From a virus, in IMG/VR virus record IMGVR_UViG_3300004209_000001, positions 1 through 32,535 of that record: DNA of 32,535 nt; one strand, written 5' to 3'. Numbering within the stretch: the first letter of the stretch is position 1; each line of letters begins with the position of its first letter. Both the position numbers and the translations under genes were made by a program. Under the pieces are notes generated by a model, which was given only the letters and a program-made list of their open reading frames with translations, was not told the DNA's origin and did not search any database. This document shows positions 12,756 through 31,803 of this stretch, piece after piece.

Positions 12756-12757
12756 AA

Positions 12758-13558: not shown

Positions 13559-13579
13559 TGTTAATCATCCTCCTAGTTT

Positions 13580-14044: not shown

Positions 14045-14081
14045 TCTTGGCTTCCTCGCACTTGAAGATATGCCTGATCTT

Positions 14082-14444: not shown

Positions 14445-14473
14445 TGCTTTAGAAATCGGTTTTTTTCTTTATA

Positions 14474-15548: not shown

Positions 15549-15558
15549 GTTTTTCACC

Positions 15559-15714: not shown

Positions 15715-15716
15715 TC

Positions 15717-15953: not shown

Positions 15954-15957
15954 TGTT

Positions 15958-17357: not shown

Positions 17358-17371
17358 GTAGAGTCACCTAT

Positions 17372-17378
17372 AAAAAAA
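17372..17378 (-). terminator. Oligo-T tract (T7 on minus strand) between the two capsid genes; candidate archaeal terminator/attenuator
   Basis: AAATTATTTTTTTATAGG in the 38-nt spacer after the MCP stop. Confidence 0.4.
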
Positions 17379-17395
17379 TAATTTGATGACCTATT

Positions 17396-18202
17396 TTACA
17401 AGGTCATCTTTGCGACTGCATTGTCATCAAGTACTGCAGGTGCTACTCTTTCAGTAATTGTTACTCCAGCAGCAAGATCTCGCAATGGATCTGTGAAGTT
17501 CTCTGTTGAGAGAGGTCTTCTTTCAACCAATACACAAGCTCTGCTGTCTAAAGCAAGAATTGTGCCTGGTTCTACTGCAGTGGTTTCAACTACTTGAAGT
17601 CCAGCAACATTTCCTATGATTCCTGTCTCGTCAAGCCTGTCAAATGCCTTATAGCCCTTACTGATAAGATCTTTTTCAAGCTTTGCCAAGTCATCAGGAT
17701 GTGCAACAAGCCATGCTGCTTTGTAGCTGTGTCTATTGACTCCATTTCTCAGGGTGACAACGTCTTCCTGAACAAATTGTCCTGCAGTCTTTGGCGAGAC
17801 TGTATTCGATGTGTTCATCAATACTCGGAAGATTTCTTCATCTTCTTTTCTTGCCACATCTTCTGCAGCCATGTCAGCTTTCAATCTGACAACATCAAAG
17901 GCAGAATCTTCGATGGCTTCTTTTGGAATAGCAAACGCTTTTCCGATCTTATATGGTGTTACAACAACTTCGTTGAAAGTGCTGACATCCATAGGGATTG
18001 CTCCCAGTTCTGGAATCACATATGCTTGTCCTGCTCCCATCTTAGGGATTTTCAGTGCAGATCCTTCACTCAGGGTTATGAGTTTCACGATCTTTCTTCC
18101 TACTCTTTCTCTGCCTGCAACCTTAAACACGTTGGAGTCGATGACTTCCTTGATGAGAGGTGCAGCGTCTTGGCTCGAAAATAGTTCTTGCATTGTTTTC
18201 AT
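17396..18202 (-). CDS. Major capsid protein (HK97 fold)
   Basis: PYKIGKAFAIPKEAIEDS, spine helix VARKEDEEIF, LVAHPDD, IGNVAGLQVVET; follows protease-scaffold-decoration; strong RBS GAGGAGG. Confidence 0.92.
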   Translation of the reverse strand: MKTMQELFSSQDAAPLIKEVIDSNVFKVAGRERVGRKIVKLITLSEGSALKIPKMGAGQAYVIPELGAIPMDVSTFNEVVVTPYKIGKAFAIPKEAIEDSAFDVVRLKADMAAEDVARKEDEEIFRVLMNTSNTVSPKTAGQFVQEDVVTLRNGVNRHSYKAAWLVAHPDDLAKLEKDLISKGYKAFDRLDETGIIGNVAGLQVVETTAVEPGTILALDSRACVLVERRPLSTENFTDPLRDLAAGVTITERVAPAVLDDNAVAKMTL

Positions 18203-18218
18203 TTTGCCTCTCCTCCTC

Positions 18219-18593
18219 TTATTTCACGATTTTTACAGGAATCTTCCTTGTCACTGGGCTACCGCCAGTCGAGTTGTCTATCTTCTCGTATGCTTTGGCC
18301 ACTGCGACTCCTGTGTTTTTTGCTTGCAGTGTTGCGTTGTCTTTGACTTCAAGTTCATCCCCGACATTCAGGATTGCTGAAGCTGCGACTGATACATCCA
18401 CATAGAATGTTCCGATGCATCCAATTGATGCAGGGTTTCCTTGTGGTGTGTCTTTTAGGCAGACTCCAAGTATGTCTGCTTGTGCAGATGCTGGCTGGAC
18501 TGTTAGTCCAACAAGCTGTCCTTTGGTAAGGTTTCCTGTTGCAACGAGCATGCTTGGATTCTTTCCGTCGTCAATCATGATATCATATGTCAT
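18219..18593 (-). CDS. Head decoration / cement protein (DUF2190/gpD-like)
   Basis: ATGNLTKGQLVG...ILGVCLKD...G pattern; directly upstream of the MCP. Confidence 0.7.
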   Translation of the reverse strand: MTYDIMIDDGKNPSMLVATGNLTKGQLVGLTVQPASAQADILGVCLKDTPQGNPASIGCIGTFYVDVSVAASAILNVGDELEVKDNATLQAKNTGVAVAKAYEKIDNSTGGSPVTRKIPVKIVK

Positions 18594-18606
18594 TTTGATT
18601 CACCTC

Positions 18607-19086
18607 TTAGTTCTCCATTCCCAGTACTGATGCAATTTCTTTTCGCTTGTCAGTTGCCTGGTTTGAATTGTTGATCAGGGACTTTCTGTCGCCTATGCTT
18701 TTGTGTAGATCAAGCATTCTTTTTGTCTGCTTTGCATATGCTTCAAATCCGCCCTTGTCGTCAAGTGCTCTCAGTTCATTGAGTCTTTGCTCTTTGTTTG
18801 TTTCAAGCACTCCAAGCTTTTCTTCAGCATCGATTATTTCTTTCAATGCGATGTCTCTTGCAGCTTGTTTTATCTGCTTGAGTTCAGTTGTTACTGTTTC
18901 AAAATCTTTCATCAACTTCTCGTGCTTTGCTGTCAGTTCCGAGATAAGTTTGTCCTTTGAAGATATTTCCTGATTTAGCATTGCAATATCTTGTTCTTTT
19001 GCTGCAAGCTCTTCAGCGGCTTTCTTCAATAGGGTTTTAGCCTGTTCAATTTCTTTGACTTCCGCCATTTTGATCATTGCCTCCAT
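18607..19086 (-). CDS. Capsid scaffolding protein
   Basis: E/K/A-rich coiled coil between protease and decoration/MCP. Confidence 0.75.
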   Translation of the reverse strand: MEAMIKMAEVKEIEQAKTLLKKAAEELAAKEQDIAMLNQEISSKDKLISELTAKHEKLMKDFETVTTELKQIKQAARDIALKEIIDAEEKLGVLETNKEQRLNELRALDDKGGFEAYAKQTKRMLDLHKSIGDRKSLINNSNQATDKRKEIASVLGMEN

Positions 19087-19666
19087 TTTCTATCGGGTTG
19101 ATTCTTGCATCTTTGCATGCAGGTTCATCAACAAGACTTAATTCTTTAAATTCGAGATTGCGAGCTATTTGGACTCCATTCTCCTCGACATTATCTATCA
19201 ACACACCAACACTCACAGATTCGATGAGGTTGTTCAGAAGTTTCTGAATTATGTCCCCATCGGTTACAATTGCTTCAAATTCTATCCATTTCTTTGGAAC
19301 TATCCATGTGGATTTGATTACTTTTCCAACGATGTCTCTCGTGCTGGTTGAGTGATCTATTCTCAAAGGTTTGTTTCCAAGACCGATATATGCTTTTTCA
19401 AGTTCTTCTGCTGGATAGAATATGCCATTCCATGTGCCTTCACTTATTGCAATTCCTGATATCCTCAGGTTTGAGCCTTCTGCAAGGACTTGATGGATCT
19501 TAAATTCAGAAAGATGTATGTGTTCAAGCTGTCGTGAAAGTGATTTAGTTACTTGGATCTGGCCGTTATTAGCGAGAAAATTCTCTATCATCTCTTTAGA
19601 ATCTTCCTTTTTCGTTTCTACTGAGTTGATGAACTCGTAAATTTCTTTAATAAGTAATTCAGCCAT
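19046..19666 (-). CDS. Prohead maturation protease (HK97/U35-like)
   Basis: ISGIAISEG...NGIFYP...PLRIDH (His)...SVSVG (Ser)...ELSLVDEPA. Confidence 0.88.
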   Translation of the reverse strand: MAELLIKEIYEFINSVETKKEDSKEMIENFLANNGQIQVTKSLSRQLEHIHLSEFKIHQVLAEGSNLRISGIAISEGTWNGIFYPAEELEKAYIGLGNKPLRIDHSTSTRDIVGKVIKSTWIVPKKWIEFEAIVTDGDIIQKLLNNLIESVSVGVLIDNVEENGVQIARNLEFKELSLVDEPACKDARINPIENGGNDQNGGSQRN

Positions 19667-19731
19667 ATGTTCTCAAATCTGTTTTTTTCTTAATATTATT
19701 TTAGTAGATGTTAAGAACGAGGGATAAATAC

Positions 19732-19765
19732 CGAAACATTCTTATATATTAGTATATTCTAATAT
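19732..19765 (+). promoter_or_regulatory. BRE/TATA promoter with overlapping 7-6-7 inverted repeat (candidate ArsR operator)
   Basis: CGAAACATTC-TTATATA (TATA 19742-19748); ATATTAG(19746-52)-N6-CTAATAT(19759-65); ATG at 19772 implies a near-leaderless mRNA. Confidence 0.65.
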
Positions 19766-19771
19766 GTTTAT

Positions 19772-20077
19772 ATGAATAAGATATATGAACTGCATGCTGA
19801 AATGTGCAAAGTATTTTCAAACCCTACAAGACTCGAGATACTCAATTTGTTAAGAGATAAGGAAATGTCAGTCACAGAACTTATTCAAAAAACAAATCTA
19901 AGTCAAGCAAACATATCACAGCATCTCGCAATCATGAAATATAAAGGAATTGTAACATCAAGAAGAAATGGGAAAAACATTCATTACAAAATTACAAATC
20001 CAAAAATTATAACTGCATTTGATATTATTAGAGAAGTCTTGTCCCAAAGATTAAAAAGCAGAAAAAATGGAGGATAA
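19772..20077 (+). CDS. ArsR/SmtB-family winged-helix regulator
   Basis: CKVFSNPTRLEILNLL...SVTEL...LSQANISQHLAIM...GIV...RRNGK. Confidence 0.93.
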   Translation: MNKIYELHAEMCKVFSNPTRLEILNLLRDKEMSVTELIQKTNLSQANISQHLAIMKYKGIVTSRRNGKNIHYKITNPKIITAFDIIREVLSQRLKSRKNGG

Positions 20078-20082
20078 AAATC

Positions 20083-20394
20083 ATGGAAAAAGACAAACAA
20101 ATTATGATCTGGATTCTTGCAGGAATAATAATCCTAATGCTTGTCTTCGGAAACTATTTTGGAACTGGAGGATATGGGATGATGGGCTTTGGTATGGGCT
20201 TCGGAATGATTTTTATGATACTATTCTGGGGCGCATTAATATGGCTCGTTGTAACACTTGTTAATCAGTCTCAATCCCACACCAATCAGAACCGAAGAGA
20301 TGAAGACGCAATTGAAATACTCAAACGAAGATATGCAAAAGGCGAAATCTCAAAAAAAGAATATGAAAAAATGAGAAAAGAACTCATCAGGTGA
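20083..20394 (+). CDS. SHOCT-domain membrane protein
   Basis: Two TM segments, a Gly/Met-rich loop, and C-terminal DAIEILKRRYAKGEISKKEYEKMRKEL. Confidence 0.9.
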   Translation: MEKDKQIMIWILAGIIILMLVFGNYFGTGGYGMMGFGMGFGMIFMILFWGALIWLVVTLVNQSQSHTNQNRRDEDAIEILKRRYAKGEISKKEYEKMRKELIR

Positions 20395-20723
20395 AAAATA
20401 TGAAAATAGGAATTGTCATTGGAACAAACGAGCCAGAAGTGGTCTGGAATGCATTTAGATTTGGGGTAACTGCATTGAAATCAAATCATGAAGTCAAAGT
20501 ATTTCTCATGAATAAAGGAGTCGAAGCAGAAGATATTAAAGATGAAAAATACGATGTCAAGGAACAGATTGAACAATTCATGACAAGTAATGGCCATATA
20601 CTTGCGTGTGGGACTTGCCTTAAAGCAAGACAAAAAGGAGAAAGTCAAGTGTGTCCTATATCAACAATGAAAGATTTGCTTGCAATGGTTGAAAGTTCAG
20701 ATAAACTTTTGACGTTCGGATAA
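20391..20723 (+). CDS. DsrE/DsrF-like sulfur-relay family protein
   Basis: WNAFRFG...VKVFLMNKGVE...ILACGTCLKAR...STMKDL...SDKLLTF; GTGA overlap with the SHOCT gene. Confidence 0.88.
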   Translation: MKNMKIGIVIGTNEPEVVWNAFRFGVTALKSNHEVKVFLMNKGVEAEDIKDEKYDVKEQIEQFMTSNGHILACGTCLKARQKGESQVCPISTMKDLLAMVESSDKLLTFG

Positions 20724-20724
20724 A

Positions 20725-22767
20725 TTATTCAGAATTCAATAAACTTACAACCCATCCACACCTGCATCGTGGATGAACTGGGATGATTCCTTCAGCTAAG
20801 TGGATAGAAATGTTTTGATTGCTTGATGATAATTCAATGCATTGTTCGCATGCATCTGGATTGACGGACATCTGCAGGTTAGCAACTCCGAGTTCTTTGA
20901 AAGATTGAATATTTCCCTCAATAAATGCTCTCTGTAGTTCTGTTCTTGCGATGAGTTCTGCTCTTGTTCCTATGCTGTTAAATCTGTCAGCAGTACCGCC
21001 ATATTTCTCAAAGATAGTCTCGATGTCTTCTTTTAGTTGTCTTGCTCCTTTCCTGGCCATTATGCCATCACGTATTGCTATTTGCGTGGCATTAAGAAGA
21101 TCCTCGTTCACTTTATTGGCTAATTGACTGGATCGTAAATCAAGAGCTCTGATAGCTTGTTCGTTAATTGTGCTTTTGACTTTTATTCCTGCAACTTGTG
21201 GATATTGTTTCTTGATAAAATTCTCTCCAAGTTTTATTCCTTGTTTGAATTTCTTTTTAGAATCGATGAATATGGCAGCAACAAGTGCATCTCTTTCAGG
21301 TCCTAGAAGTTCAGAATCAATAAGAATATCTTCTCTCGCCATGGATTGATTCTCATCTTGCGTATTGAAGTCTATTTCTTTGATTATCTTAGATCTTGCC
21401 TTATCCATTACTTTATTGATCTTGTGAGTTAGTATTTGCTGATCTGCGATGAATCTTGACCTTATGGGAAGTGATAATTCTTTGAGTATTCCTCCAAAAT
21501 CAAGTTCTTCTGTTATTTTGAAATGAAAGTCGGTGTCGGGAGTTATCATCAAATCCTTATCGTTTAGGAATTGAGAAAAAAAGTCTCCTGACTGATCAGG
21601 AAAGGGTTGCTCATCCTTGGGGGGTGTAGAAATAGGTTCTAAGCCCATATCCTGCCTGACTTCATCAGGAGTTAAAACGCCATATTTCAAGTAGATCTCT
21701 CGCTCTTGTGCAAGTTCAAGATCTGATTTAGTTTGTAATGAATTAAAGATCATAAATACAGGACATTCGTCAAGTCCAATTACTTTCGTGAATAATTCTT
21801 TGTGCAGTGTTTCTGCAACAAGGCTCTGGATTCCTGCGATGTATAAAAAGAAGTTTTCTTGTTGAGAAACTGATGATGATCTATTGCTATATTCTCCGCT
21901 TCCTAAGAGAATTGTTTGAGGAACACCTGTCCCTGCAACAATCTGGTCTATGAAATATTTAAGATAACTTTCTCCACCTTTTAGTCCTGGAGCTTCCAAT
22001 ACTTTAATGTCATAATAATAGGGCGTAACGAATTCTGATTTAGAATTTATCCGTTTGTACTTCTCTGATTCTTCAGTTACTTGATCTCCTGTTGGTTGAT
22101 GTTCACTATCTCCAAGCTTTACATGAAATTGTGGAAATCCATGACGATAAACTGCTTCTGCAAGTCCTATCTCTATGTTTCGTTTAGCTTCTATTATCTT
22201 AGCAAGTGGCTCAATTACGCCAGTGCCTGTAAGAGAATCAGCAATAGTATTAATCCTGAAATGAATTATTTGATTTGGAGCAAGGTCTATCTTCTTCGCA
22301 TTTACTGTCTGAACAAATCCTGTTATGTTTCCACTCTCGTCAAGATCCAACTCTCCTGTACTTTTCTTTTTGAAAGCGATTGTCTTTGGATCAATTAATG
22401 CAAGACCTACAACTTTCTTTTTGTCAGTTCTTGAATAAACAATTTCAAGATATGCATTTCCATAAATATGTAGATGCCTGACGATATCCGTTAATAGTTT
22501 TGGAAGTCCGACAGAATTATCAAGAGTTATAATCTTGTCTTTCATCTCTATATTTTCATCAGTGTTTTCAGAAAGAACGTATTCGTATCCTTTGGATATT
22601 GCGAATGTGCTTATGATATTGATTGCTTGAAATACGAGCTGGTCTGTTTTATAGATATTTTCAAGTTTTGAATAGTTTACACTACTGTAATCTATTGTCG
22701 TGGCTGTTTGTCTTACTCCCTCATTTACTTTGGAGAGCACCATTAATGCTTTGTTTTCATTCTCCAT
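20725..22767 (-). CDS. Portal protein fused to a C-terminal MuF (SPP1 gp7-like head morphogenesis) domain
   Basis: Portal: HLHIYGNAYLEI, LIDPKTI, IIHFR, GTGVI, GVPQTILLG, GVLTPDEVRQDMGL. MuF: RAELIARTEL...CEQC...IPVHPRCRC. Confidence 0.9.
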   Translation of the reverse strand: MENENKALMVLSKVNEGVRQTATTIDYSSVNYSKLENIYKTDQLVFQAINIISTFAISKGYEYVLSENTDENIEMKDKIITLDNSVGLPKLLTDIVRHLHIYGNAYLEIVYSRTDKKKVVGLALIDPKTIAFKKKSTGELDLDESGNITGFVQTVNAKKIDLAPNQIIHFRINTIADSLTGTGVIEPLAKIIEAKRNIEIGLAEAVYRHGFPQFHVKLGDSEHQPTGDQVTEESEKYKRINSKSEFVTPYYYDIKVLEAPGLKGGESYLKYFIDQIVAGTGVPQTILLGSGEYSNRSSSVSQQENFFLYIAGIQSLVAETLHKELFTKVIGLDECPVFMIFNSLQTKSDLELAQEREIYLKYGVLTPDEVRQDMGLEPISTPPKDEQPFPDQSGDFFSQFLNDKDLMITPDTDFHFKITEELDFGGILKELSLPIRSRFIADQQILTHKINKVMDKARSKIIKEIDFNTQDENQSMAREDILIDSELLGPERDALVAAIFIDSKKKFKQGIKLGENFIKKQYPQVAGIKVKSTINEQAIRALDLRSSQLANKVNEDLLNATQIAIRDGIMARKGARQLKEDIETIFEKYGGTADRFNSIGTRAELIARTELQRAFIEGNIQSFKELGVANLQMSVNPDACEQCIELSSSNQNISIHLAEGIIPVHPRCRCGWVVSLLNSE

Positions 22768-22798
22768 TTTTATTCAGCAGTTATTTTTTAGGAGACTC

Positions 22799-23122
22799 TT
22801 ATTTAACTAATATCAGAAGTCCGTTTTTTTCTTTATAATATTTCTTTACAAAGGAATCATCAAGCACATATAGTCTTACAAACCTGCTTCCTGAAACATT
22901 CTTATCCACATATGATTGAAAGACAGTAAGTGATGCCTTTACAGGAAATCGAGATAATATGTGACCGAGAGCTTTTGGATTCTTTACTCCGCTTTTTTGA
23001 TTAAACTTTGAAATGTACTCGTAGATATGGAATGCGCTTCTTTTTCTTGGATAGAAATAAAGTAGTGCTTGCATTATTTTCTTATCTCTTCTGCTTAGTT
23101 TTTCTGGATCGAACATTTTCAT
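22799..23122 (-). CDS. Small basic hypothetical protein (possible winged helix)
   Basis: Between TerL and portal; start near ATG 23122 after RBS GGAGGT; Lys-rich. Confidence 0.5.
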   Translation of the reverse strand: MKMFDPEKLSRRDKKIMQALLYFYPRKRSAFHIYEYISKFNQKSGVKNPKALGHILSRFPVKASLTVFQSYVDKNVSGSRFVRLYVLDDSFVKKYYKEKNGLLILVK

Positions 23123-23135
23123 CATTACCTCCTTT

Positions 23136-24608
23136 TTACCTGACAATGCTTGTGACAAATCCTGCGGCTTGACTTACTTTCTTTGCAGATTCTCCTGCAT
23201 AAACGAAAGCAATAGGAATATCAGGATGCACTCCTATCTCTATGATCTTGCCATCTTCAAGTGCAAAGCTTCTGAATTCCTGCTCGAGAATCTCGTATCT
23301 TTCCTTCGCCTCATCACTTCCATAAGGTATGATAACTTGATTGTTTTCAAACCAAGTCGTCATCCTTAATATCGCATTTGTTTTAGAGATAGAATTGTCA
23401 GTGTCTCTCGATCCTGTTCTTAGAAGTCTAATTGGAAGACCTAACGATTGAAGATCTTTACTTATGGCCATGATGCTGTTTTCTTCTAAGGCCATTATGT
23501 CATAATCGTAAATCGCATGTAATTCTCTTAATTTATCGACTTGTTGTTGTCCTGTTAATCCTTGAGCTCTGAAATAATTGCACAAGACAAATCTTCCATC
23601 GTGGAGTCTTGCGAGAGTTAGAAATACAGAATAGTTTGCATTCTTTCTTTCAGAAAACGCAAAGTCAGCACCGCAAGTAAGAAGCGTTACATTGAATCCG
23701 TATCTTTTAAGATCCTGCCTATTTCTAATCAAGTCAATAGAATCACTTCTTGCCCTTAGCAACCATTCTCTTTTGAATATGCTGCTCTGATCATCTATTG
23801 GATTAAGCATGTACTCGCACTGAAATCTTAAAGATCCAATAGTTTCTTTTATCCTCAATAATTCATCAAAGGATCTTCTTTTAGGAGAGAGAACTTTCTT
23901 TTGTTCAAAGTCAAGTATTGCTGGATATGCCTTGAAATTAAATTGCTTGTTAGATTTCAAATCAAAGAGTATATCTGAAAATCTGAGCGGAGTTCCTATA
24001 ACTGTGATATTGCCTTTCTTTGCTGTTGAACAATTGAATACTGCAGAATAAAACTTGTTGATTGTTTGCTTATCACTTAATGTACTGTCCTCTGTGATTA
24101 TATCATCACATACAATTCTATCAACGTGCAGTCCTCTCCATTTTCCTGCAATACTTCGAGCATGAATTATTGCATCATTCTTCAAGACTATTTTTTTGGA
24201 ATTCCAAGAGCTTAGACTGACATTCTTATCAGCTCCTTCTGGCTTAAACTCTGAATTAAGATAAGGACTAACATAGAAGAAGAACTTAATCCTGTCGAAG
24301 AGTTCATTGGTTTGATCCCCACTTACGCTTGCGATTATTTGCTCGTGATGAGTATCATATACTGCATAGTAAATTGTAATCCATACCGTAAACATCTCAC
24401 TTTTACTGTGTCCTCTTGGAGCTTCTATTGCATTATAAAGATGATCTTGCTCTTGTTCAAACCATTCCTTGTAGTAATCTTCTTCCTCGAAGTGCTGTTC
24501 CATATAAGGAGCGAGGTATCTCTTTACAAATCCTATGAAGTTCAGATAAATCGACTCTTTGAAACTGTCAAAGAGAGCTTTTTCAATTGGACTGTTTGGC
24601 AGATTCAA
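23136..24608 (-). CDS. terL: Terminase large subunit
   Basis: Walker A APRGHSKS, RGLHVDRIVCDDI Walker B, IGTP, nuclease GADFA; TTG start after GGAGG. Confidence 0.95.
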   Translation of the reverse strand: MNLPNSPIEKALFDSFKESIYLNFIGFVKRYLAPYMEQHFEEEDYYKEWFEQEQDHLYNAIEAPRGHSKSEMFTVWITIYYAVYDTHHEQIIASVSGDQTNELFDRIKFFFYVSPYLNSEFKPEGADKNVSLSSWNSKKIVLKNDAIIHARSIAGKWRGLHVDRIVCDDIITEDSTLSDKQTINKFYSAVFNCSTAKKGNITVIGTPLRFSDILFDLKSNKQFNFKAYPAILDFEQKKVLSPKRRSFDELLRIKETIGSLRFQCEYMLNPIDDQSSIFKREWLLRARSDSIDLIRNRQDLKRYGFNVTLLTCGADFAFSERKNANYSVFLTLARLHDGRFVLCNYFRAQGLTGQQQVDKLRELHAIYDYDIMALEENSIMAISKDLQSLGLPIRLLRTGSRDTDNSISKTNAILRMTTWFENNQVIIPYGSDEAKERYEILEQEFRSFALEDGKIIEIGVHPDIPIAFVYAGESAKKVSQAAGFVTSIVR

Positions 24609-25179
24609 TTGCAGCCCTCCATTCTTGCATCACTTCAGGATGTTTATTAAGAACTTTCAAAGTTACATCTTTGAATATTTGAAATTCTATCGAGAAATTA
24701 TTGATTTGTACATTGATGGTTTGTTCTTTTGGTGTTCGGTATTTAGTTTCTTTTATCTTGAGAAAAAGCAAGACAAAATTTTCCATCCTCTTTTGATCAT
24801 TCGCAGTAAGGTTTTTTAGATGAATCATCTGCATTTGTTTGTTGATAAAATCATCATATTCTTCTTCTGAAGTAAAAGTCAATGCAGACATTAAATGCAT
24901 ATAATTCGGGATGTCAATGATCTTGCACGCAGCTTTCGGATCTTCAGGTTTATACGCATTGCATCTACTTCTAAATATGCAATTATTACAATGAGGTATT
25001 CGTTTTGAATATCTTCCATCTACCATTGAATTGGATGAGTTTGCAATTCTTCTCTTTTCTGACATTGTTTGCCCACCCTTAACACTATCATCTTTTGTGA
25101 AGATGTGCTGTTTGCCATTGAATCTGTCCAGTCGTGAGTTCAGAGGGCTCGTCTGAGGGCTCGTTTCATTTTCCATCAT
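24583..25179 (-). CDS. Probable terminase small subunit with Cys cluster
   Basis: Directly upstream of and overlapping TerL; GGQ motif, HCNNC...RC...AC, VQINNF near the C-terminus; start near ATG 25179 (RBS AGGTGG). Confidence 0.6.
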   Translation of the reverse strand: MMENETSPQTSPLNSRLDRFNGKQHIFTKDDSVKGGQTMSEKRRIANSSNSMVDGRYSKRIPHCNNCIFRSRCNAYKPEDPKAACKIIDIPNYMHLMSALTFTSEEEYDDFINKQMQMIHLKNLTANDQKRMENFVLLFLKIKETKYRTPKEQTINVQINNFSIEFQIFKDVTLKVLNKHPEVMQEWRAAIESAKQSN

Positions 25180-25792
25180 TGACCACCTTACTTTCAGAAG
25201 CAACTAATCTTTTGCAGATTTCAACAAGTGCTTTATTCTTATCAGTAGCATTTTCTGCAAGATCTAAAGCATCCATTACAATCTGTTTTTCAGTTTCCTT
25301 TATGATAAAAGTTAGAACAACAGGAGCTTCTCTTTGCTCTTTCTCCTGCATTTCTTCTATTTGCTTCTGTACATTAGCAGGTAGGCCAAGAAGATCCATT
25401 CTATCTTTGAGTTCTCCCTGATTGAATACAGTGAGTTTCTCAATGTCTTGGAGAGTGTACCTATCATGTATTTGCTTGAACATTAAGGCTTCTTTGTATG
25501 GATTATGACTGCCGTGTATGTTAGCGTTTAAGGTATCAACCATCGCTTCTGTTACATCAATCTCATCAACTATACAATCCACTTCAGTATAGCCAAGTTC
25601 TTTGCAAGCTCTAAATCTGTGAGCTCCATCAACAATGATATATCTCTCACCGTTCTTTCTTACTTCAATCGGCTTTCTGAATCCCTTTCTCTTAATGTTC
25701 TGGACAAGTTTCAAGTAATGATTCTCATCCATCTCATTAGGATTGTACTCATTCTCATCAATCAAATTCACAGATATTTTTTCAGTTTTCAT
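25166..25792 (-). CDS. ParB/sulfiredoxin-fold protein
   Basis: ENEYNPN...LVQNIKRKGFRKPIEVR...YIIVDGAHRFRA. Confidence 0.88.
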   Translation of the reverse strand: MKTEKISVNLIDENEYNPNEMDENHYLKLVQNIKRKGFRKPIEVRKNGERYIIVDGAHRFRACKELGYTEVDCIVDEIDVTEAMVDTLNANIHGSHNPYKEALMFKQIHDRYTLQDIEKLTVFNQGELKDRMDLLGLPANVQKQIEEMQEKEQREAPVVLTFIIKETEKQIVMDALDLAENATDKNKALVEICKRLVASESKVVNDGK

Positions 25793-26736
25793 TTTGTCAC
25801 CACCAATATTTCTGTTGCAGTTTGCATCTGCTCATCACTTGCAGTGATAGCCCACTTGTGTTGTATTTCATAGAGTTCTGCAGGTCTATGCTGTTGCACT
25901 ATACTCAGAAGTTTTTGTCCATCAATTTGTGGACCGCCAAAACTGAAGATAACTTTTTTTATGTGCATTGATTTCTCAAGAAGTTTATGCAGGAACTTTT
26001 CTGCATCATCAGAGTTGAATTTACTTTTCTCAACATGGAGTTTCTTCTGTACTAAAATGCTGTCGAGTATGTTGTAAAATTCTTCATAACTCTGACTTCC
26101 TGCATAAGGTGGATCAAAATATATCGTATCACCCTGCACACCATCTAAGAAATCAAAAACATCTTTTTGATGAAGCTCGCAGTCTTTGCCATTATCAAAA
26201 ATACCATAGTTGATATGGTCTTTAATCTGTTGTAATGCTCTGACTGGCTTGTACATGTATTTTATGTGTGGCTTGATTACTTTGATATTGCATGTTTCCA
26301 AGTCTTTTGGAATCTTATTAGATAGCATTCCAAATGGTTTATATTTAGCCAAGAACTTAATCAAAAGAAGTTTTTGCAAATCAGTCTTTGCATTGGCAAA
26401 AGCATTATCTACAAACTGAACATCTTTTTCAAGCAAGAGATTTGGATAAGTATCTCTGATGAAATGATTATCAGTCTCCTTGAACAATGCAAATACATCA
26501 TAGTCGGTAAGTTTCGTGTTCTTGTTCTCTATGATTGCTTTGCCGACTATCCTTGACCGCTCAGAGATGTCATTGCAGATTACTTTGAATCCTCTTGCTT
26601 TCGCTAATAAGGAAACACTTCCTCCACCAAGAAATGCATCGATGAATACTTCTCCTTCAGCGTGGCTCATTATTCGTCGTGCAAGTTTTCTCTTTCCACC
26701 AAAATAACTAGGTAACGAATCATATCCTTTCCACAT
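25789..26736 (-). CDS. Dam-family (D12 class) N6-adenine DNA methyltransferase
   Basis: PSYFGGK, FIDAFLGGGSV (SAM-binding), VICND, IYFDPPY (catalytic); start ATG 26736 after GGAGGT. Confidence 0.9.
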   Translation of the reverse strand: MWKGYDSLPSYFGGKRKLARRIMSHAEGEVFIDAFLGGGSVSLLAKARGFKVICNDISERSRIVGKAIIENKNTKLTDYDVFALFKETDNHFIRDTYPNLLLEKDVQFVDNAFANAKTDLQKLLLIKFLAKYKPFGMLSNKIPKDLETCNIKVIKPHIKYMYKPVRALQQIKDHINYGIFDNGKDCELHQKDVFDFLDGVQGDTIYFDPPYAGSQSYEEFYNILDSILVQKKLHVEKSKFNSDDAEKFLHKLLEKSMHIKKVIFSFGGPQIDGQKLLSIVQQHRPAELYEIQHKWAITASDEQMQTATEILVVTK

Positions 26737-26737
26737 T

Positions 26738-26890
26738 TTACACACCTCCTTTTTCTTTCAAATATTCCTGCAGGAAAAAGGGAAAATTATCTTTCCTGTT
26801 TGGTGCTCTGATTCCTTTTTCTTTCGCCCATGTCATTATCACATCAAATGTTTCGGCATAGACGTATCTTCGTTTCAGATCTTTCATCAT
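26738..26890 (-). CDS. Small 50-aa protein, possibly RHH-like
   Basis: Manual translation MMKDLKRRYVYAETFDVIMTWAKEKGIRAPNRKDNFPFFLQEYLKEKGGV; ATGA overlap with the upstream ORF; missed by the track. Confidence 0.55.
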   Translation of the reverse strand: MMKDLKRRYVYAETFDVIMTWAKEKGIRAPNRKDNFPFFLQEYLKEKGGV

Positions 26891-27057
26891 TGTACATCAC
26901 TCTCCTTGCACAAAGGTTGTAGAGCTTCGACTATTTTCTCAAGTTCCACAATCTTTTCTTCATTCTCCACTATCTTCCTTTTCCAGGAAGTGTTATCTTG
27001 TCTGAATGCCTGGATGTCAGCTTTCAGACGGTCTTGCATTTGTTTTGCTTCTCCCAT
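26887..27057 (-). CDS. Small coiled-coil protein (56 aa)
   Basis: Manual translation MGEAKQMQDRLKADIQAFRQDNTSWKRKIVENEEKIVELEKIVEALQPLCKESDVQ; RBS GAGGTG. Confidence 0.6.
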   Translation of the reverse strand: MGEAKQMQDRLKADIQAFRQDNTSWKRKIVENEEKIVELEKIVEALQPLCKESDVQ

Positions 27058-27069
27058 TTTGTTTCCACC

Positions 27070-27270
27070 TCAGTCGATATCAAACTCCTTGGCCTTGCCT
27101 TTGAGTATGAACAGATTTGCTGTATCAATGTGAATTCTCAGAACATCGTCAGGTTTGAACGGCCCTCTTTTCTTTCCAGCAAGATCTTCAAACGATCTGA
27201 CTTTCTTGATGAATCGAATTGTCTTCATCTGTTTCTTTGGATCTGTGATGCCATGAATTTTGAGAATCAT
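27070..27270 (-). CDS. Stand-alone GINS B-domain-like protein (Gins51/Psf1 C-terminal domain)
   Basis: IRFIKKVRSFEDLAGKKRGPFKPDDVLRIHIDTANLFILKGKAKE matches the V+F...VP.F...DG..YGPF...DV..L....A..LI..G.A pattern; ATGA-coupled to the primase stop. Confidence 0.75.
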   Translation of the reverse strand: MILKIHGITDPKKQMKTIRFIKKVRSFEDLAGKKRGPFKPDDVLRIHIDTANLFILKGKAKEFDID

Positions 27271-28385
27271 TGTTGACACCCCTTGCATACCGCTCCACAG
27301 CCTATTGAGTCAAGAAATTCGTGAGTGTACTTGCAACTGACTTTTCCTGTTGTACTTTTTGCACTTGTTTGAATATTGAAATCTTGCAAGTATCCGCCGA
27401 GAACTGCATCATTCCAATCTTTTAGTTTTCTTACTTGATCATCATCGTTTTTGAAATGAGATGCGAGAATAAACAAAGCTCTCTTTCTTCCTTCCGATAC
27501 TTTTGCATATTCTTGACTTAGCAAAAATTGTATGCATGGCTTTGTTGTTGTAGCGACTGGCTTTGTAAAGAAATCATTTAAGTTAGCGTGTCGTACTTTT
27601 GGCTTTCCGATTCCTTTTAATTGCATAAATTCTTTGCATAGCTTGACGATATCTTTTGGAACTGTTAGCTTGAGAGCATTTGCATTATGGCAATAATCAT
27701 GGAATGGAAAGACTGGATATCCTTTGTTTTCTTGATTGAATATTGGTGGGACTAATTTTACTTCTTCAGGAGTATGTCCAAGAAATGTTTTGAATCCGAG
27801 TTTATGCAGACTGCCCTCGCTTCTTATCAAATGGTTTGTGTGATTTAGCTGGAAGTCAATGCAGAGGTCCTTGTAGTTCTTTTCGAGTTTCTTTGCAATA
27901 AATGTGGTGAATTGCTTGATGAATTTCTTTTTAGATCCGAAATGCTCGACTATCTTAATCTGTAATGGCATTTCAAGAGTGTCTTTTAATGATGAATAAT
28001 CTAGGAAGAAATGTGCATGCAGTCCTTTGTTTCCTGAATACCACACATAAGGAACATAATTTAATTCTTTGAGTAAGTGATAGATTGTTCTGAAGTGATA
28101 AACATTCTGCTCGTATTCTTTTGCATCAAAATCAAATACTATCTCATTATCAAGAAGTGTTCTATGGATTGTGTATGCTCTTAGTTTATTGTCTTGTTTT
28201 ATGTCATTCCATTCGACCCTTTTAGTGAAGTATCCTTCTTTGCTTTGTAGACTGACATTAAATTCTGTTATCTGATTTAATGTGTCAAGATACCACATTC
28301 TATGAAATCCTATAGATCTATTTTCTTCATAGATTGGCTCTCCAAGCCAATATTCATCTTCCCAAGGAGGTGAGAAAAGCATCAT
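27267..28385 (-). CDS. priS: Archaeo-eukaryotic primase, PriS-PriL fusion
   Basis: AEP motifs EIVFDFD, YSGNKGLH, CID...LIRSEGSLH; C-terminal KPCIQ...GRKRALFIL...SC...GC...C..C resembling the PriL Fe-S domain. Confidence 0.88.
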   Translation of the reverse strand: MMLFSPPWEDEYWLGEPIYEENRSIGFHRMWYLDTLNQITEFNVSLQSKEGYFTKRVEWNDIKQDNKLRAYTIHRTLLDNEIVFDFDAKEYEQNVYHFRTIYHLLKELNYVPYVWYSGNKGLHAHFFLDYSSLKDTLEMPLQIKIVEHFGSKKKFIKQFTTFIAKKLEKNYKDLCIDFQLNHTNHLIRSEGSLHKLGFKTFLGHTPEEVKLVPPIFNQENKGYPVFPFHDYCHNANALKLTVPKDIVKLCKEFMQLKGIGKPKVRHANLNDFFTKPVATTTKPCIQFLLSQEYAKVSEGRKRALFILASHFKNDDDQVRKLKDWNDAVLGGYLQDFNIQTSAKSTTGKVSCKYTHEFLDSIGCGAVCKGCQQ

Positions 28386-30442
28386 ATTCTCTCAACCTCT
28401 GCCCATTCGTAATGATAGAGAAAATCATTTTTCTCGACAATGAATCCACCTTGTATCAATAAAGAAAGATTGAAGTGCAGTCTTGTCTGATGCATTTCTA
28501 ATCGGCATTTCTCTTTAAGCGCCGTTGGTGTCGCTTTGAATCCAAGATTTGCAAGAGTTCGAAGAATGTAAACTCCTTCCTCAGGGATAAATTTAGATCT
28601 TACTTCTATTGGTATCTTTTGATCTTTGAGAAGTTCATCTATTGTTTGCTTAAACCAACTCTTGATAATTATTGACCAAACTAATTCTGCTTCTTGATAA
28701 TCTTCTTCTATTGCATTAAAATTTGAATCTCTTGTCGTTAAACATCTGACTTTGACAATTCCATCAAGCAAACATTCTAAGTGGTGCAAATATCTCGCTT
28801 CATACAATCCTCTAACAGTCTCACTTAGGAAAGGGACAAACTTATCACATAATTTTACAACTCGTTCTCGTTTGTATTGAGAATCAAAGCTTTGAAGATA
28901 ATCTTGAATACTTAGGAAATCATTTACTTCAATCCACTCTTTTGTAAGTTGAGTGTCTTCTTTCATCTTCTGATGAATGAATTTTACATGATCATCAGTC
29001 TGATAATAAATTAAGAATCTGCTCAGGAATGAATCATCAAACTTATCGACAAGACTGACGATATTATTTGTTCCAGCGATAGGATTAGTGGTTGCCATCA
29101 ATCGTGCAGTCATTGAAGTTCTGATTCTTCCTTGACCACTTCCTGCTTGCCTGTCTTTATGTTCAAGCAAGTCATTCATTCTACCACATTCATCTTCTTT
29201 CTCGTTGATGTTTAATCTAAGAATTCTGAAAAACTCGTCTACAATTACGAGTCTTGAAGCTTTTGCTAATGCTCCCATCTCTGGCCTGTTCTGTTCTTTG
29301 AAACTTGGAATGAGATATTTTAGCGTTGAAGAAGATCCTGCAACTATCTCCTGACTCTCTCCGCTTTTCTGATGAAGTGCTTCTAAGAAACTGCTTTTTC
29401 CCGTTCCCCTATCCGCTATCCATAGGAGATGCATCGGATATGCGGATGTGATTCCTTTCTTCTTGTGAAATAAGAAAGCTGCAATGAATTTGAGAAACCA
29501 TCGTGGATGTTCTAAGATCTTTATACCTTCTGCAGTCTTATGACTTTGAAGATATTCATAGAGCTTGTTTCCTGTAAGTTTTATTTCCTCGCATTTATCA
29601 AATAATTCTTTATGATTTGTTAATTGACAAATGTGACTGTTTGCAGTATGGACAAAGAATACAGGAAACTTGTTTAATAGGCGATAAGCATCTCCGATTA
29701 TTTTAGTATCTTCAACTTCAATGCTTAATCCATGAACGGTGTAATCGTCGAGATTCAGCTTTTCTGTACTAATTAAAACATATTCCTTTGTGTCTTTTGA
29801 TAAGAATCTGTAAAGATAAAACTCTCCGCTAATCTCATCTATAATCTTTGTTCTCTTCGGTATTTTTTGTCCAAAAACATATGCGACATAAGTTTTTTTA
29901 TCTGAATCTTCTTTTGGAGAAATCTCTGCTTTCCATGCAACAGGAAGTTTAATCTTCTTTTGTTCTATCTCTCCAATTACCTTCCCATCTATCCTGTGTT
30001 TATTGGAGATAGTAAATATTAGTGGTTTGTTTTGTGTATCTTCAAAGACGAGTCTTGCAAGATTCTTGACTTGTTCATAGTTTAATGGCTCTGATACTTT
30101 TATTATGCTGTTCTGTGTATTTTTTGCAATTACTGACTGCAAGAATGGATCTTCTATTCCATTCTCCTCTGGAATTGATCTATGAAGTATGTTTGTTGAT
30201 TTGTAATATCTAAAAAATTCTATTGCTTTCTTGAAATCTGCTTTATGTTTTTCTTGTATTGTTAGAAGAAACTTTTCTATTTCTTCAATGACTTTGATAT
30301 TGTTCTTGATGTTTAAGTCTGATGTTGATGGATTTATTTCATAGCTTAACTTAATCAGCACTCCATGAATGTCTGCTTTCTCTTCTTTGCTTACATTCAG
30401 TTTGTCTATGTTTATGAGTTTGAATATGATTTGTTGATCCAC
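28382..30442 (-). CDS. mcm: MCM-family replicative helicase (divergent)
   Basis: Walker A IADRGTGKS, GALAKASRLVIVDEF, ATTNP, Arg finger LSRF, sensor-2 helix EARYLHHLECLLDGIVKVR, C-terminal wHTH. Likely GTG start at 30442 after GAGGT (track start 30487). Confidence 0.85.
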   Translation of the reverse strand: MDQQIIFKLINIDKLNVSKEEKADIHGVLIKLSYEINPSTSDLNIKNNIKVIEEIEKFLLTIQEKHKADFKKAIEFFRYYKSTNILHRSIPEENGIEDPFLQSVIAKNTQNSIIKVSEPLNYEQVKNLARLVFEDTQNKPLIFTISNKHRIDGKVIGEIEQKKIKLPVAWKAEISPKEDSDKKTYVAYVFGQKIPKRTKIIDEISGEFYLYRFLSKDTKEYVLISTEKLNLDDYTVHGLSIEVEDTKIIGDAYRLLNKFPVFFVHTANSHICQLTNHKELFDKCEEIKLTGNKLYEYLQSHKTAEGIKILEHPRWFLKFIAAFLFHKKKGITSAYPMHLLWIADRGTGKSSFLEALHQKSGESQEIVAGSSSTLKYLIPSFKEQNRPEMGALAKASRLVIVDEFFRILRLNINEKEDECGRMNDLLEHKDRQAGSGQGRIRTSMTARLMATTNPIAGTNNIVSLVDKFDDSFLSRFLIYYQTDDHVKFIHQKMKEDTQLTKEWIEVNDFLSIQDYLQSFDSQYKRERVVKLCDKFVPFLSETVRGLYEARYLHHLECLLDGIVKVRCLTTRDSNFNAIEEDYQEAELVWSIIIKSWFKQTIDELLKDQKIPIEVRSKFIPEEGVYILRTLANLGFKATPTALKEKCRLEMHQTRLHFNLSLLIQGGFIVEKNDFLYHYEWAEVERI

Positions 30443-30541
30443 TTTTATGACCTCATTTTTTTGATAGCTATCGCTATCTTCGAGCATTGTTGTTCTTTTC
30501 TTGGGCTTGTTATGTTACCACTAACGAGTTAAGTGATACGA

Positions 30542-30605
30542 AAAACGGGGGAGAGCCACTGTTTTCATTTTCTTTTTCTGATTGCGTATCTCTCTCCCCT
30601 GTTTT
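30542..30605. repeat. 14-bp inverted repeat with G-strings and a 36-nt spacer
   Basis: AAAACGGGGGAGAG (30542-55) and CTCTCCCCTGTTTT (30592-605), 13/14 complementary. Confidence 0.8.
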
Positions 30606-30638
30606 CAACACCACTGAACCTGCAAGTAGTGACATTAT

Positions 30639-31124
30639 TTATCCCTCAATCTTTTCCTCAACGACACCTGGTTGCTCGTCTTCCCATGGATTCACATCGT
30701 TGATAGTGCTTGCTTTGGTTTTCTCTGTCTTGTTTGTTGCTGGATCAGTCCAATCGTATTCGTAATCCTCAACCAAGACTTCTGCTTCTGCTCCAATAAA
30801 GTCATTTGTGTCCAGTCCTTGATTGGAGAATTTCCATCCAAGTGCCATGAACACTTGTGTGATGTTGCTATTCGGTGTTATTGCAGTCCTGTAGCTTCCA
30901 TCATCTTGCTTGTATTCCGAATAGACTTCTGTTGCAAGTTGCAAGAATTTGCCATTTTTCTGATAGCGCTGGTCGATAATGTCAAATATCAGGACAATCT
31001 TTTTTCCAAACTTGCTTTCATTCTTCTTTGGCCTGATTTCTGTTAGTCTTGCGTGATAGAATCCTTTCTTGATGTATGGCCGTTTTTGTGGTACGGCAAC
31101 CTTATCTGATGCTTCAAGTTTCAT
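30639..31124 (-). CDS. Phage single-stranded DNA-binding protein (DUF669-like)
   Basis: IKKGFYHARLTEI...IVLIF...LDTNDFIGAEAEVLV; acidic C-terminal tail; directly upstream of MCM. Confidence 0.7.
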   Translation of the reverse strand: MKLEASDKVAVPQKRPYIKKGFYHARLTEIRPKKNESKFGKKIVLIFDIIDQRYQKNGKFLQLATEVYSEYKQDDGSYRTAITPNSNITQVFMALGWKFSNQGLDTNDFIGAEAEVLVEDYEYDWTDPATNKTEKTKASTINDVNPWEDEQPGVVEEKIEG

Positions 31125-31303
31125 TTTCTTGACCTCCTTTCATCCTTTTTTGGCTTGTCTACTCTTTCAATGCCAAGATCTTCCATGAAGTCGTCGACTT
31201 CTCGGTTGTCTTTTTGTTTCTGGATCTTGTCTTTGGTCTGCTTGTTACGTTTCTGCAGCTCTTTTCGGATTTCATTCTGCTGAGTCATCGTAATCATCCT
31301 CAT
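31121..31303 (-). CDS. Small highly charged hypothetical protein
   Basis: ATGA overlap with the SSB start; K/Q/D-rich. Confidence 0.5.
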   Translation of the reverse strand: MRMITMTQQNEIRKELQKRNKQTKDKIQKQKDNREVDDFMEDLGIERVDKPKKDERRSRK

Positions 31304-31544
31304 CAGAAATGCCTTCCACGAGCTTTTGTCGTAGCTTGCTGTAGCCTTTGAAGTAGCTCTCAGCTCTTTGTAGAATTCTTGCAGTTATTTCTGCTTCCGA
31401 TAGTGCCTGGGCACCTTTTATGAGGTGTATCTCGACATCTATTGCCTTCTTAAAACAGACTTGAAGGCGTATGTCTTGGTCTTTTTTTGCCCATTTATCG
31501 GCTTCGCTTTGCTGGTACTTTTCGACCGTTTGCATGTCTTTCAT
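31272..31544 (-). CDS. Hypothetical early protein with acidic tail
   Basis: RBS GGAGG; first gene of the minus-strand operon; ends DEDDYDDSAE. Confidence 0.65.
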   Translation of the reverse strand: MKDMQTVEKYQQSEADKWAKKDQDIRLQVCFKKAIDVEIHLIKGAQALSEAEITARILQRAESYFKGYSKLRQKLVEGISDEDDYDDSAE

Positions 31545-31789
31545 GGTTTTTCCCTCCTGGTTTTTTCGGTCTCATCCCAGACACTTCGGAGGTCCAAAAC
31601 CACAGATTTTCCACCAGAAATATAGGTCAAAAATGCTTCCTGTGGAACTTCTGTTTTGTTGGACTTGCTATGGCTGCTTTGCAGAAATTCGAAGGTTTTA
31701 GCCTCTATAATGGTCAAAACCGTTTTCCTAACTGCAAAGTGACCTTATAGCGGTTTTTAGAAAATGCGCCATAACTACTGCTTAGTAGC

Positions 31790-31803
31790 GAAACATTTAT
31801 ATA
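31790..31803 (+). promoter_or_regulatory. Archaeal BRE/TATA-like promoter upstream of the right-hand gene
   Basis: GAAACATTTATATA, very similar to the cassette promoter at 19733-19748. Confidence 0.5.

What the first reader, a model, noticed from the sequence alone, without database searches (positions are those of the whole stretch)
27070..27270. Stand-alone GINS B-domain protein coupled to the viral primase
Seen: a 66-aa ORF consisting only of a GINS B-domain-like sequence (GPFKPDDV core), overlapping the primase stop (ATGA). Known: in Thermococcus the Gins51 C-terminal B domain binds GAN (Cdc45/RecJ) and the PolD DP1 subunit, and priS-gins51 adjacency is a conserved chromosomal arrangement. 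Inference: without the helical A domain it cannot join a GINS tetramer. It may be an adaptor recruiting host GAN/PolD to the viral MCM (the virus has no polymerase), or a decoy that uncouples the host replisome. Either would be a little-characterised takeover mechanism.
Basis: partly seen in the sequence, partly recalled or inferred. Interest (0 to 1): 0.85.

Follow-up and report, generated by a model that had tools for sequence, protein, structure and literature searches.

The report
Stand-alone GINS B-domain in archaeal provirus
A tailed provirus of small DPANN archaea carries a 66-residue gene, joined by overlapping stop/start codons to its own primase and helicase genes, that encodes only the small docking domain of the cellular replication factor GINS; it is probably a plug linking this polymerase-less virus's replication enzymes to the host replisome.

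Summary
ORF 27070-27270 (-) encodes 66 aa and overlaps the stop of an AEP primase gene by ATGA. That primase gene in turn overlaps an MCM-like AAA+ gene.

**Domain identity.** Alone, the ORF matches Pfam Gins51_C only weakly (E 0.12). The family evidence is stronger:
- 8 of 9 close homologues match Gins51_C, the best at 5e-9.
- The family profile finds the C-termini of cellular Gins51 proteins.
- An AlphaFold model (pLDDT 83) superposes best on T. kodakarensis Gins51C (Z 8.7, rmsd 1.5 Å).
- No A-domain is found in the window.
- dN/dS is about 0.12.

**Host and virus.** The window is a roughly 32-kb tailed provirus. A collinear copy lies in a 421-kb contig of a Woesearchaeota-type DPANN genome. 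That genome has its own Gins51, a GAN orthologue, PolD and MCM. The virus has no DNA polymerase.

**Other A-less B-domains.** They also sit beside, or are fused to, unrelated mobile-element primase-helicases (D5-like, Prim-Pol).

**Function (inferred).** The protein is most likely a docking subunit that connects the viral helicase-primase to host GAN and/or PolD (confidence about 0.45). The main rival is a PriS-CTD-like primase accessory acting in trans, because PriS-CTD is a known homologue of the B-domain. A decoy role is less likely. I found no published description. I class it as a new variant of a known kind.

The parts
27070..27270 (-). 66-aa stand-alone Gins51-type B-domain ORF. Residues 1-14 are a disordered N-terminal peptide. 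Residues 15-62 form the beta-beta-beta-alpha-beta domain. The acidic tail EFDID is conserved.
27267..27270 (-). ATGA stop/start overlap between the primase and the B-domain ORF, implying translational coupling
   Evidence: the same 4-nt overlap appears in the gene calls of relatives
27277..27282 (-). SD-like GGGGTG, 6 nt upstream of the ATG at 27270, inside the primase's last codons
   Evidence: read
27271..27288 (-). Possible N-terminal extension from the alternative ATG at 27288, giving a 72-aa form
   Evidence: most relatives are called from the overlapping ATG
27267..28385 (-). 372-aa archaeo-eukaryotic primase. The catalytic part carries the motifs FDFD and SGNKGLH. The C-terminal Cys-rich part is PriL-CTD-like (PCIQ...GRKRALFIL).
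   Evidence: 26% identity (E 3e-6) to a host fused PriS-PriL primase in G316
28382..30487 (-). 701-aa divergent MCM-like AAA+ helicase; 4-nt overlap with the primase start
26887..27057 (-). 56-aa coiled-coil ORF, always directly downstream of the B-domain gene; function unknown
26738..26890 (-). 50-aa conserved small ORF, next in the same operon-like string; function unknown

Best explanation
**Shown.** The ORF is a real gene under purifying selection. It encodes a free-standing Gins51-type B-domain of about 50 aa plus a roughly 15-aa flexible N-terminal peptide. It is made from the same translationally coupled string as the provirus's MCM-like helicase and its AEP primase. The virus is a roughly 32-kb temperate tailed virus of a Woesearchaeota-type DPANN archaeon and encodes no DNA polymerase. 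Its host has Gins51, a GAN (RecJ/Cdc45) orthologue, PolD (DP1+DP2) and MCM.

**Inferred.** The protein is the small docking subunit of the viral helicase-primase. It is held on the viral enzymes non-covalently; in some other elements it is held covalently through a flexible linker. It offers host replisome proteins the surface they normally find on the tethered B-domain of Gins51, namely GAN by beta-strand addition and/or the N-terminal domain of the PolD small subunit. This would bring the host replicase to a viral fork that does not use host MCM-GINS.
For: 1. Domain identity is supported by profile and by fold.
2. In T. kodakarensis, isolated Gins51C (aa 138-188) is sufficient to bind DP1N and GAN at once, on opposite faces (PMC9023282).
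3. Host G236 has a full-length GAN orthologue (5ghr_A, E 4e-67; DHH+CID+DHHA1), DP1 followed by DP2, and its own Gins51 and MCM.
4. No polymerase is found in the provirus.
5. MCM-like, primase and B-domain genes are conserved with 4-nt overlaps in all relatives.
6. A-less B-domains recur with unrelated mobile-element primase-helicases:
   - a D5_N/DUF5906/Pox_D5 gene overlapping a 51-aa B ORF in an IMG/VR virus;
   - a Prim-Pol+Zn-ribbon gene two genes upstream of a 56-aa B ORF;
   - a D5-like protein with the B-domain fused to its C-terminus behind a low-complexity linker. That tethering resembles Gins51, not the packed PriS-CTD.
7. dN/dS is 0.12.
Against: - No binding was tested.
- The viral domain is only 16-48% identical to host Gins51 B-domains and is not closer to its own host's copy.
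- In the window's clade, the near-universal Tyr of YGPF is Arg and the LP motif is IH.
- A 50-aa domain would need a further surface, or its N- or C-terminal peptide, to hold on to the viral enzymes.
- The first 109 residues of host DP1 did not align to solved DP1 chains, so a DP1N domain in this host is not shown.
- Nearly identical proviruses sit in MAGs whose Gins51 B-domains differ greatly. This argues against fine-tuned mimicry of one host.
Confidence: 0.45

Rival explanations
1. Primase accessory acting in trans. The ORF is the functional equivalent of the PriS C-terminal domain, a known B-domain homologue, made as a separate subunit. It would stabilise or regulate the viral primase, or primase-helicase, and have no host partner.
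For: [quoted passage not shown] The ORF lies exactly where a CTD would be and is translationally coupled, which implies stoichiometric production. The common denominator of all A-less B-domains found here is a primase, not an MCM. S. solfataricus PriS-CTD (1zt2_A 274-328) matches the model at Z 6.1.
Against: By sequence the family matches Gins51 C-termini, not PriS. hhalign gives 94% with host Gins51 and nothing with host PriS, and the 112 profile hits are Gins51-like. By fold it is closer to Gins51C (Z 8.7, rmsd 1.5 Å) than to PriS-CTD (Z 6.1, rmsd 4.3 Å), although the model's alignment was dominated by Gins51 sequences. In the D5-like fusion the domain hangs from a low-complexity linker at the helicase end, far from the primase domain.
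Confidence: 0.25
2. Decoy. The free B-domain titrates host GAN and/or PolD away from host Gins51, uncoupling the host replisome during lytic growth.
For: Isolated Gins51C binds both partners tightly in T. kodakarensis (PMC9023282). The viral protein lacks the A-domain that would tether it to GINS.
Against: The strict co-translation with the primase and helicase, and the existence of covalent helicase-B fusions, fit a constructive part of a replication machine better than a soluble inhibitor. A polymerase-less virus needs the host polymerase rather than its sequestration. The element is temperate.
Confidence: 0.1
3. GINS-core or helicase binder. The B-domain docks on the A-domain core of host Gins51, or on the viral MCM-like ring, as a minimal GINS-like activator.
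For: In GINS tetramers, B-domains pack against neighbouring A-domains (PMC2861644, PMC3114041). The gene lies in the same coupled string as the MCM-like gene.
Against: Other examples lack any MCM-like gene. In known CMG structures the Gins51/Psf1-type B-domain contacts Cdc45/GAN and the polymerase B-subunit, not MCM (PMC9023282).
Confidence: 0.1
4. Decaying remnant of a captured gins51 gene with no function.
For: It is short and lacks the A-domain.
Against: dN/dS is 0.12 over 13 alleles. The frame stays intact and the overlap is conserved across relatives whose primases are only 57% identical.
Confidence: 0.02

Closest known systems
Gins51 C-terminal (B) domain of archaeal GINS (T. kodakarensis; PDB 3ANW, 5GHR/5GHS, 7E15; Pfam PF22090)
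   Same: The family shows homology at profile level, and the fold is the same (Z 8.7, rmsd 1.5 Å over 54 residues). The core motifs are kept: K-x-hydrophobic-R-F, the GPF hairpin and the A-x-x-L-I helix. The domain size of about 50 aa equals the fragment that suffices to bind GAN and DP1N.
   Different: There is no helical A-domain and no linker to a GINS core. It is virus-encoded and co-translated with a primase. Identity to cellular domains is about 30-45%. The window's clade has lost the Tyr of YGPF and the LP motif, and has a conserved FD(I/L)D C-terminal tail.
PriS C-terminal domain of archaeal primase (S. solfataricus 1ZT2; Swiatek & MacNeill 2010)
   Same: It is the same fold family and sits directly after a Prim-type catalytic gene. 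The arrangement looks like the 'Prim ORF + B-domain' intermediate those authors proposed for the origin of PriS-CTD.
   Different: It is a separate polypeptide. Its sequence and model are closer to Gins51C than to PriS-CTD. The viral and host primases here carry a PriL-CTD-like domain instead of a recognisable B-type CTD.
Psf1 B-domain in eukaryotic CMG
   Same: It is the same fold (Z 5-7). In eukaryotes this domain docks Cdc45 and the Dpb2 N-terminus, the role proposed here.
   Different: It is eukaryotic, part of a four-subunit GINS, and never free-standing.
Polymerase-docking C-terminal tails of viral replicative helicases, e.g. T7 gp4 (my own knowledge; analogy only)
   Same: A small flexible element on a viral helicase-primase that recruits the polymerase.
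   Different: It is not homologous. In T7 the tail binds the virus's own polymerase, whereas here the proposed target is the host's.

Membership tests
GINS B-domain / Gins51_C (PF22090) | Profile match to the family model | tested here: met
   The window ORF alone is below the cut-off (12.7 vs 27 bits). Family members P0009 and P0010 score 36.9 and 32.2 bits, and 8 of 9 members match. The reverse profile finds Gins51 C-termini. hhalign to host Gins51 gives 94%.
GINS B-domain / Gins51_C (PF22090) | Small fold of a three-stranded sheet, a hairpin and one helix | tested here: met
   AF2 pLDDT 83.4. 5ghr_B Z 8.7/rmsd 1.5 Å and 3anw_A Z 8.3 head both the Foldseek-based and the Foldseek-independent searches. 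Caveat: the alignment used for the model was mostly Gins51 sequences.
GINS B-domain / Gins51_C (PF22090) | Binds GAN/Cdc45 and the polymerase small-subunit N-terminal domain | not testable with these tools
   No complex prediction or biochemistry was available. The host does have a GAN orthologue and PolD DP1.
Gins51 / Psf1 / Sld5 subunit of the GINS tetramer | N-terminal helical A-domain (Pfam Sld5) that builds the tetramer core | tested here: not met
   The ORF is 66 aa. Sld5 gives no hit in the six-frame window at E<=1. The neighbouring small ORFs have no Sld5 hit. It is therefore not a GINS subunit, only its B-domain.
PriS C-terminal domain | B-type domain attached to, or directly following, the Prim catalytic domain | tested here: inconclusive
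   The position after the primase gene fits. 1zt2_A CTD matches at Z 6.1, rmsd 4.3 Å. The sequence profile does not match host PriS and matches Gins51 instead.
Archaeo-eukaryotic primase (the neighbour gene) | Catalytic motifs DxD and SGxGxH, with similarity to PriS | tested here: met
   The motifs FDFD and SGNKGLH are visible in the translation. LigD_Prim-Pol E 0.0016 and PHROG primase E 0.0019, both sub-threshold. 26% identity (E 3e-6) to a host protein with DNA_primase_S + DNA_primase_lrg. The PriL-CTD motif is shared with host PriS.
MCM helicase (the upstream gene) | MCM P-loop domain above the Pfam cut-off | tested here: inconclusive
   18-20 bits against a cut-off of 23.3. The nearest ESM Atlas clusters are viral, with PF00493 in 34-84% of members (score 0.94-0.95). 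The host's own MCM scores 308 bits.

The most novel reading that the evidence does not exclude
Archaeal viruses and other mobile elements have repeatedly taken the Gins51 B-domain alone, free-standing or fused by a linker, as a portable 'replisome plug'. It would let non-cellular helicase-primases (MCM-like, D5-like SF3, Prim-Pol) seize host GAN/PolD while bypassing GINS and host MCM. The primase-ORF-plus-B-ORF pair would also be a living example of the intermediate proposed for the origin of the PriS C-terminal domain.
Probability: 0.35. Interest if true: 0.8.

Novelty: new variant of a known kind. Interest (0 to 1): 0.62.

Why it matters
How archaeal viruses that carry their own helicase and primase but no polymerase obtain the host replicase is an open question. 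A 66-residue protein homologous to the cellular docking site for GAN/Cdc45 and the polymerase B-subunit gives a concrete hypothesis, testable with four or five recombinant proteins.

It also shows that the B-domain circulates as an independent module among mobile-element primase-helicases. It provides natural material for the proposed Gins51-to-PriS-CTD evolutionary route. And it adds a replication module to the very little that is known about viruses of DPANN archaea.

Tried and rejected
- **Single-sequence searches gave little.** Single-sequence phmmer against PDB gave only a spurious SAICAR synthetase hit. The shallow family profile against PDB gave nothing.
- **The first AF2 run was discarded.** It used 9 sequences, reached only pLDDT 60.7 and predicted wrong helices.
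- **PHROGs** had no family for the ORF.
- **Host assignment from a neighbouring S3Ae gene was weak.** On relative L016 it gave only 33-36% hits to DPANN MAGs. Searching the primase in that phylum settled the host.
- **IMG/VR pattern scans found little.**
  - The family profile found one further contig.
  - Cellular-type B-domain patterns found none.
  - P0089 found none.
  - These scans are pattern-limited and do not show rarity.
- **Host mimicry was not seen.** Viral B-domains are not closer to their own host's Gins51C. Net charge differs by viral clade (+6/+7 vs 0 to +2) with no consistent contrast to hosts.
- **The T. kodakarensis V170 position is uninformative.** V170D abolishes DP1N binding there, and the viral family has an invariant Asp at the equivalent position. 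Hosts have Lys or Glu at it, so nothing follows.
- **The att site was not found.** A 14-nt repeat lies at the left boundary and 46 kb away, but the interval contains a host Dnd island, so it is probably chance.
- **No tRNA genes** were found.
- **No integrase or polymerase** was found among the ORFs scanned.
- **Some long profile hits are repeat-protein false positives:** P0011, P0100 and P0108.
- **Literature searches** for a virus-encoded GINS or B-domain found nothing. Earlier scan notes also held nothing.

Full report
**What is in the sequence**

On the minus strand, ORF 27070..27270 encodes 66 aa. An upstream ATG at 27288 would give 72 aa. Bases 27267-27270 read ATGA on the coding strand, so the start codon overlaps the TGA of the preceding 372-aa ORF. 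A GGGGTG Shine-Dalgarno-like motif lies 6 nt upstream. The 372-aa ORF in turn overlaps by 4 nt a 701-aa ORF (28382..30487). The motif GPFKPDDV is at residues 36-43.

**Is it a GINS B-domain?**

Taken alone, the ORF gives only a sub-threshold hit, and the only Pfam family hit is Gins51_C (E 0.12). The evidence from relatives is much stronger.

- Eight close homologues exist in metagenomes (59-97% identity).
- Of the nine family members (these eight plus the window ORF), eight hit Gins51_C, the best at 5.4e-9.
- A profile of the family, searched against 1.84 billion representative proteins, returned 112 hits.
  - Two are further viral relatives. Both exceed the Pfam cut-off (36.9 and 32.2 bits).
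  - Most of the rest are 190-250-aa proteins matched at their extreme C-terminus. Those tested carry Gins51_C, several together with the Sld5 A-domain.
- An AlphaFold2 model built with this deep alignment has pLDDT 83.4, above 90 for residues 15-62, and a beta-beta-beta-alpha-beta topology.
- Foldseek and two VIA-align runs, one of them independent of Foldseek, put T. kodakarensis Gins51C first:
  - 5ghr_B: Z 8.7, rmsd 1.5 Å, 54 residues;
  - 3anw_A: Z 8.3;
  - other GINS B-domains follow at Z 5-7.
- Caveat: the model's alignment consists mainly of Gins51 sequences.
- No A-domain is detectable anywhere in the window (Sld5, E<=1).

The gene is under purifying selection. Median dN/dS is 0.12 over the 50-codon core among 13 distinct alleles.

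**Neighbours**

The 372-aa protein is an archaeo-eukaryotic primase.
- The motifs FDFD and SGNKGLH are visible.
- It has sub-threshold Prim-Pol and PHROG primase hits.
- Its C-terminal Cys-rich domain shares the PriL-type motif PCIQ...GRKRALFIL with the host's primase.
- It is 26% identical (E 3e-6) to a host protein that carries DNA_primase_S plus DNA_primase_lrg.

The 701-aa protein is only MCM-like.
- It scores 18-20 bits on the MCM P-loop model, below the cut-off.
- Its nearest ESM Atlas clusters are viral ones in which 34-84% of members carry PF00493.

The rest of the window is a tailed-virus genome.
- It encodes a large terminase, a portal fused to a Mu-F-like domain, an HK97-type capsid protein, a cement protein, a tape measure and tail proteins.
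- It also encodes a D12 methyltransferase and a ParB_N protein.

**Host and provirus**

A relative (L016) sits next to an archaeal S3Ae gene. Searching the primase in 401 genomes of the phylum that holds a 'Candidatus Woesearchaeota' MAG found it in 7 genomes.

In G236, window 1..31801 is collinear with C2:242162..210221 at 90-97% nucleotide identity, inside a 421-kb contig.
- On one side lie proteasome alpha, Rrp4 and a RibD_C gene.
- On the other side lie a Cdc6-lid AAA+ gene and then a Dnd/defence island.

The element is therefore an integrated virus of roughly 32 kb. I found no DNA polymerase and no integrase in it.

The host has:
- its own 212-aa Gins51;
- a 470-aa GAN orthologue with DHH + CID + DHHA1, matching 5ghr_A at E 4e-67 over its full length;
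- PolD DP1 followed by DP2;
- a bona fide MCM;
- a fused PriS-PriL primase.

**Conservation and recurrence**

The gene string is kept on about 20 metagenome contigs and in six proviruses, down to 57% primase identity. Its order is:

MCM-like → primase → B-domain → 55-aa ORF → 56-aa ORF → methyltransferase → ParB → terminase

The primase-to-B-domain junction keeps its 4-nt overlap in these relatives.

Across the host phylum, 384 of 401 genomes have Gins51_C, nearly always once and in a roughly 200-290-aa frame. This tally includes six genomes flagged as unpublished: G363, G248, G325, G399, G336 and G247. No other claim here rests on them.

Independently of this family, A-less B-domains occur in four other settings:
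1. A 51-aa ORF overlaps the stop of a D5_N/DUF5906/Pox_D5 primase-helicase in IMG/VR virus 3300023220_001050.
2. A 56-aa ORF lies two genes after a Prim-Pol + CHC2 zinc-ribbon protein.
3. A B-domain forms the C-terminal domain of a D5-like protein, behind a low-complexity linker.
4. A 60-aa ORF overlaps a 214-aa gene whose nearest Atlas clusters are AEP primases. This is a weak lead only.

A cellular priS-(98 aa)-gins51 cluster is present in G316.

**How it probably works**

In T. kodakarensis the isolated 51-residue Gins51C binds both GAN and the DP1 N-terminal domain, on opposite faces. GAN binds through beta-strand addition (PMC9023282).

This virus lacks a polymerase, while its host has GAN and PolD. 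The viral domain is made together with the viral helicase and primase. In another element the domain is tethered to a helicase by a flexible linker, just as it is tethered in Gins51. From these facts I infer that it is the docking subunit that plugs the viral helicase-primase into host GAN and/or PolD. My confidence is about 0.45.

Several points weaken this reading.
- Nothing about binding was tested.
- The domain is only 16-48% identical to host B-domains and does not track its own host.
- Some near-universal residues are replaced in the window's clade.
- A DP1N domain in this host is not demonstrated.

**Main rival**

Swiatek and MacNeill showed that the PriS C-terminal domain is a B-domain homologue. 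They proposed that it arose from a Prim ORF next to gins51 by loss of the A-domain (PMC2861644). The viral gene pair looks like that intermediate, so the ORF could simply be a primase accessory acting in trans (0.25).

Against this:
- Sequence affinity is to Gins51, not PriS.
- The fold fits Gins51C better than 1zt2 PriS-CTD (Z 8.7 against 6.1).
- The fusion to the helicase end of a D5-like protein does not suit a primase-packed domain.

A decoy role (0.1) and a role binding the GINS core or the MCM-like ring (0.1) are not excluded. A dead remnant is contradicted by the selection test.

**Novelty**

Full-text searches found no report of a virus-encoded GINS or B-domain protein. The large survey of dsDNA-virus replication proteins (PMC4889955) does not contain the word GINS. 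The domain and its cellular role are known. Its free-standing viral form and its repeated link to mobile-element primase-helicases appear to be new. I class it as a new variant of a known kind.

Noticed in passing
window 19772-20723 (+): A three-gene cassette lies on the opposite strand, between the head genes and the portal gene. It encodes an ArsR-type HTH (E 5e-16), a SHOCT-domain protein and a DsrE/DsrF-like sulfur-relay protein (E 3e-10). It looks like a moron or auxiliary gene set in a DPANN virus.
   Followed up: partly
window 3-638 (-), continuing in G236:C2 (L061:525-1646): The ORF running off the left end is the N-terminal part of a 373-aa AAA_22 + Cdc6-lid (Orc1/Cdc6-like or NACHT-like) ATPase. 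In G236 it is followed by a PD-(D/E)XK nuclease, an SF2 helicase, a CARF-HTH protein and a complete Dnd (DndB/C/D/E + cysteine desulfurase) island. It is unclear whether the ATPase is viral or host.
   Followed up: partly
window 31802-32535: Homology to the G236 provirus ends sharply after GAAACATTTATA at 31801. The last 730 bases, including a 217-aa open-ended ORF with no Pfam hit, differ from the G236 flank. No integrase, tRNA or convincing att repeat was found, so the mode of integration is unexplained.
   Followed up: partly
G236, G165 and G012 (loci L035-L037, L042-L044): Proviruses with 92-100% identical primases sit in genomes whose own Gins51 B-domains are very different from each other. 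This means either a broad host range across divergent DPANN lineages or mis-binned viral contigs in some MAGs.
   Followed up: no
L066:1114-2487 (G236) and L041:970-2280 (G316): The host primase in this phylum is a single 437-457-aa polypeptide with DNA_primase_S followed by a DNA_primase_lrg (PriL C-terminal) domain. The viral primase has the same fused layout.
   Followed up: partly
proteins P0018, P0055, P0076 and P0117 (one search hits): Other odd B-domain architectures appeared among the hits. There are tandem Gins51_C domains at the N-terminus of 188-279-aa proteins, one of which ends in a predicted membrane anchor. There is also a 370-aa protein with an internal B-domain. Their contexts were not examined.
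   Followed up: no
window 20725-22767 (-): The portal protein carries a C-terminal Mu-F-like domain (residues 558-670), so it is a portal fused to a head-morphogenesis domain.
   Followed up: no
L075 (G321:C87): The host gins51 is followed at once by a 137-aa frame ending in a nearly identical second B-domain. This is a tandem partial duplication or an assembly artefact.
   Followed up: no
L016:175-2972: In one relative, the replication module abuts RimK-type ATP-grasp, RimB-like protease, ribosomal protein S3Ae and pentapeptide-repeat genes. These are host flank or viral cargo; which one is undecided.
   Followed up: partly
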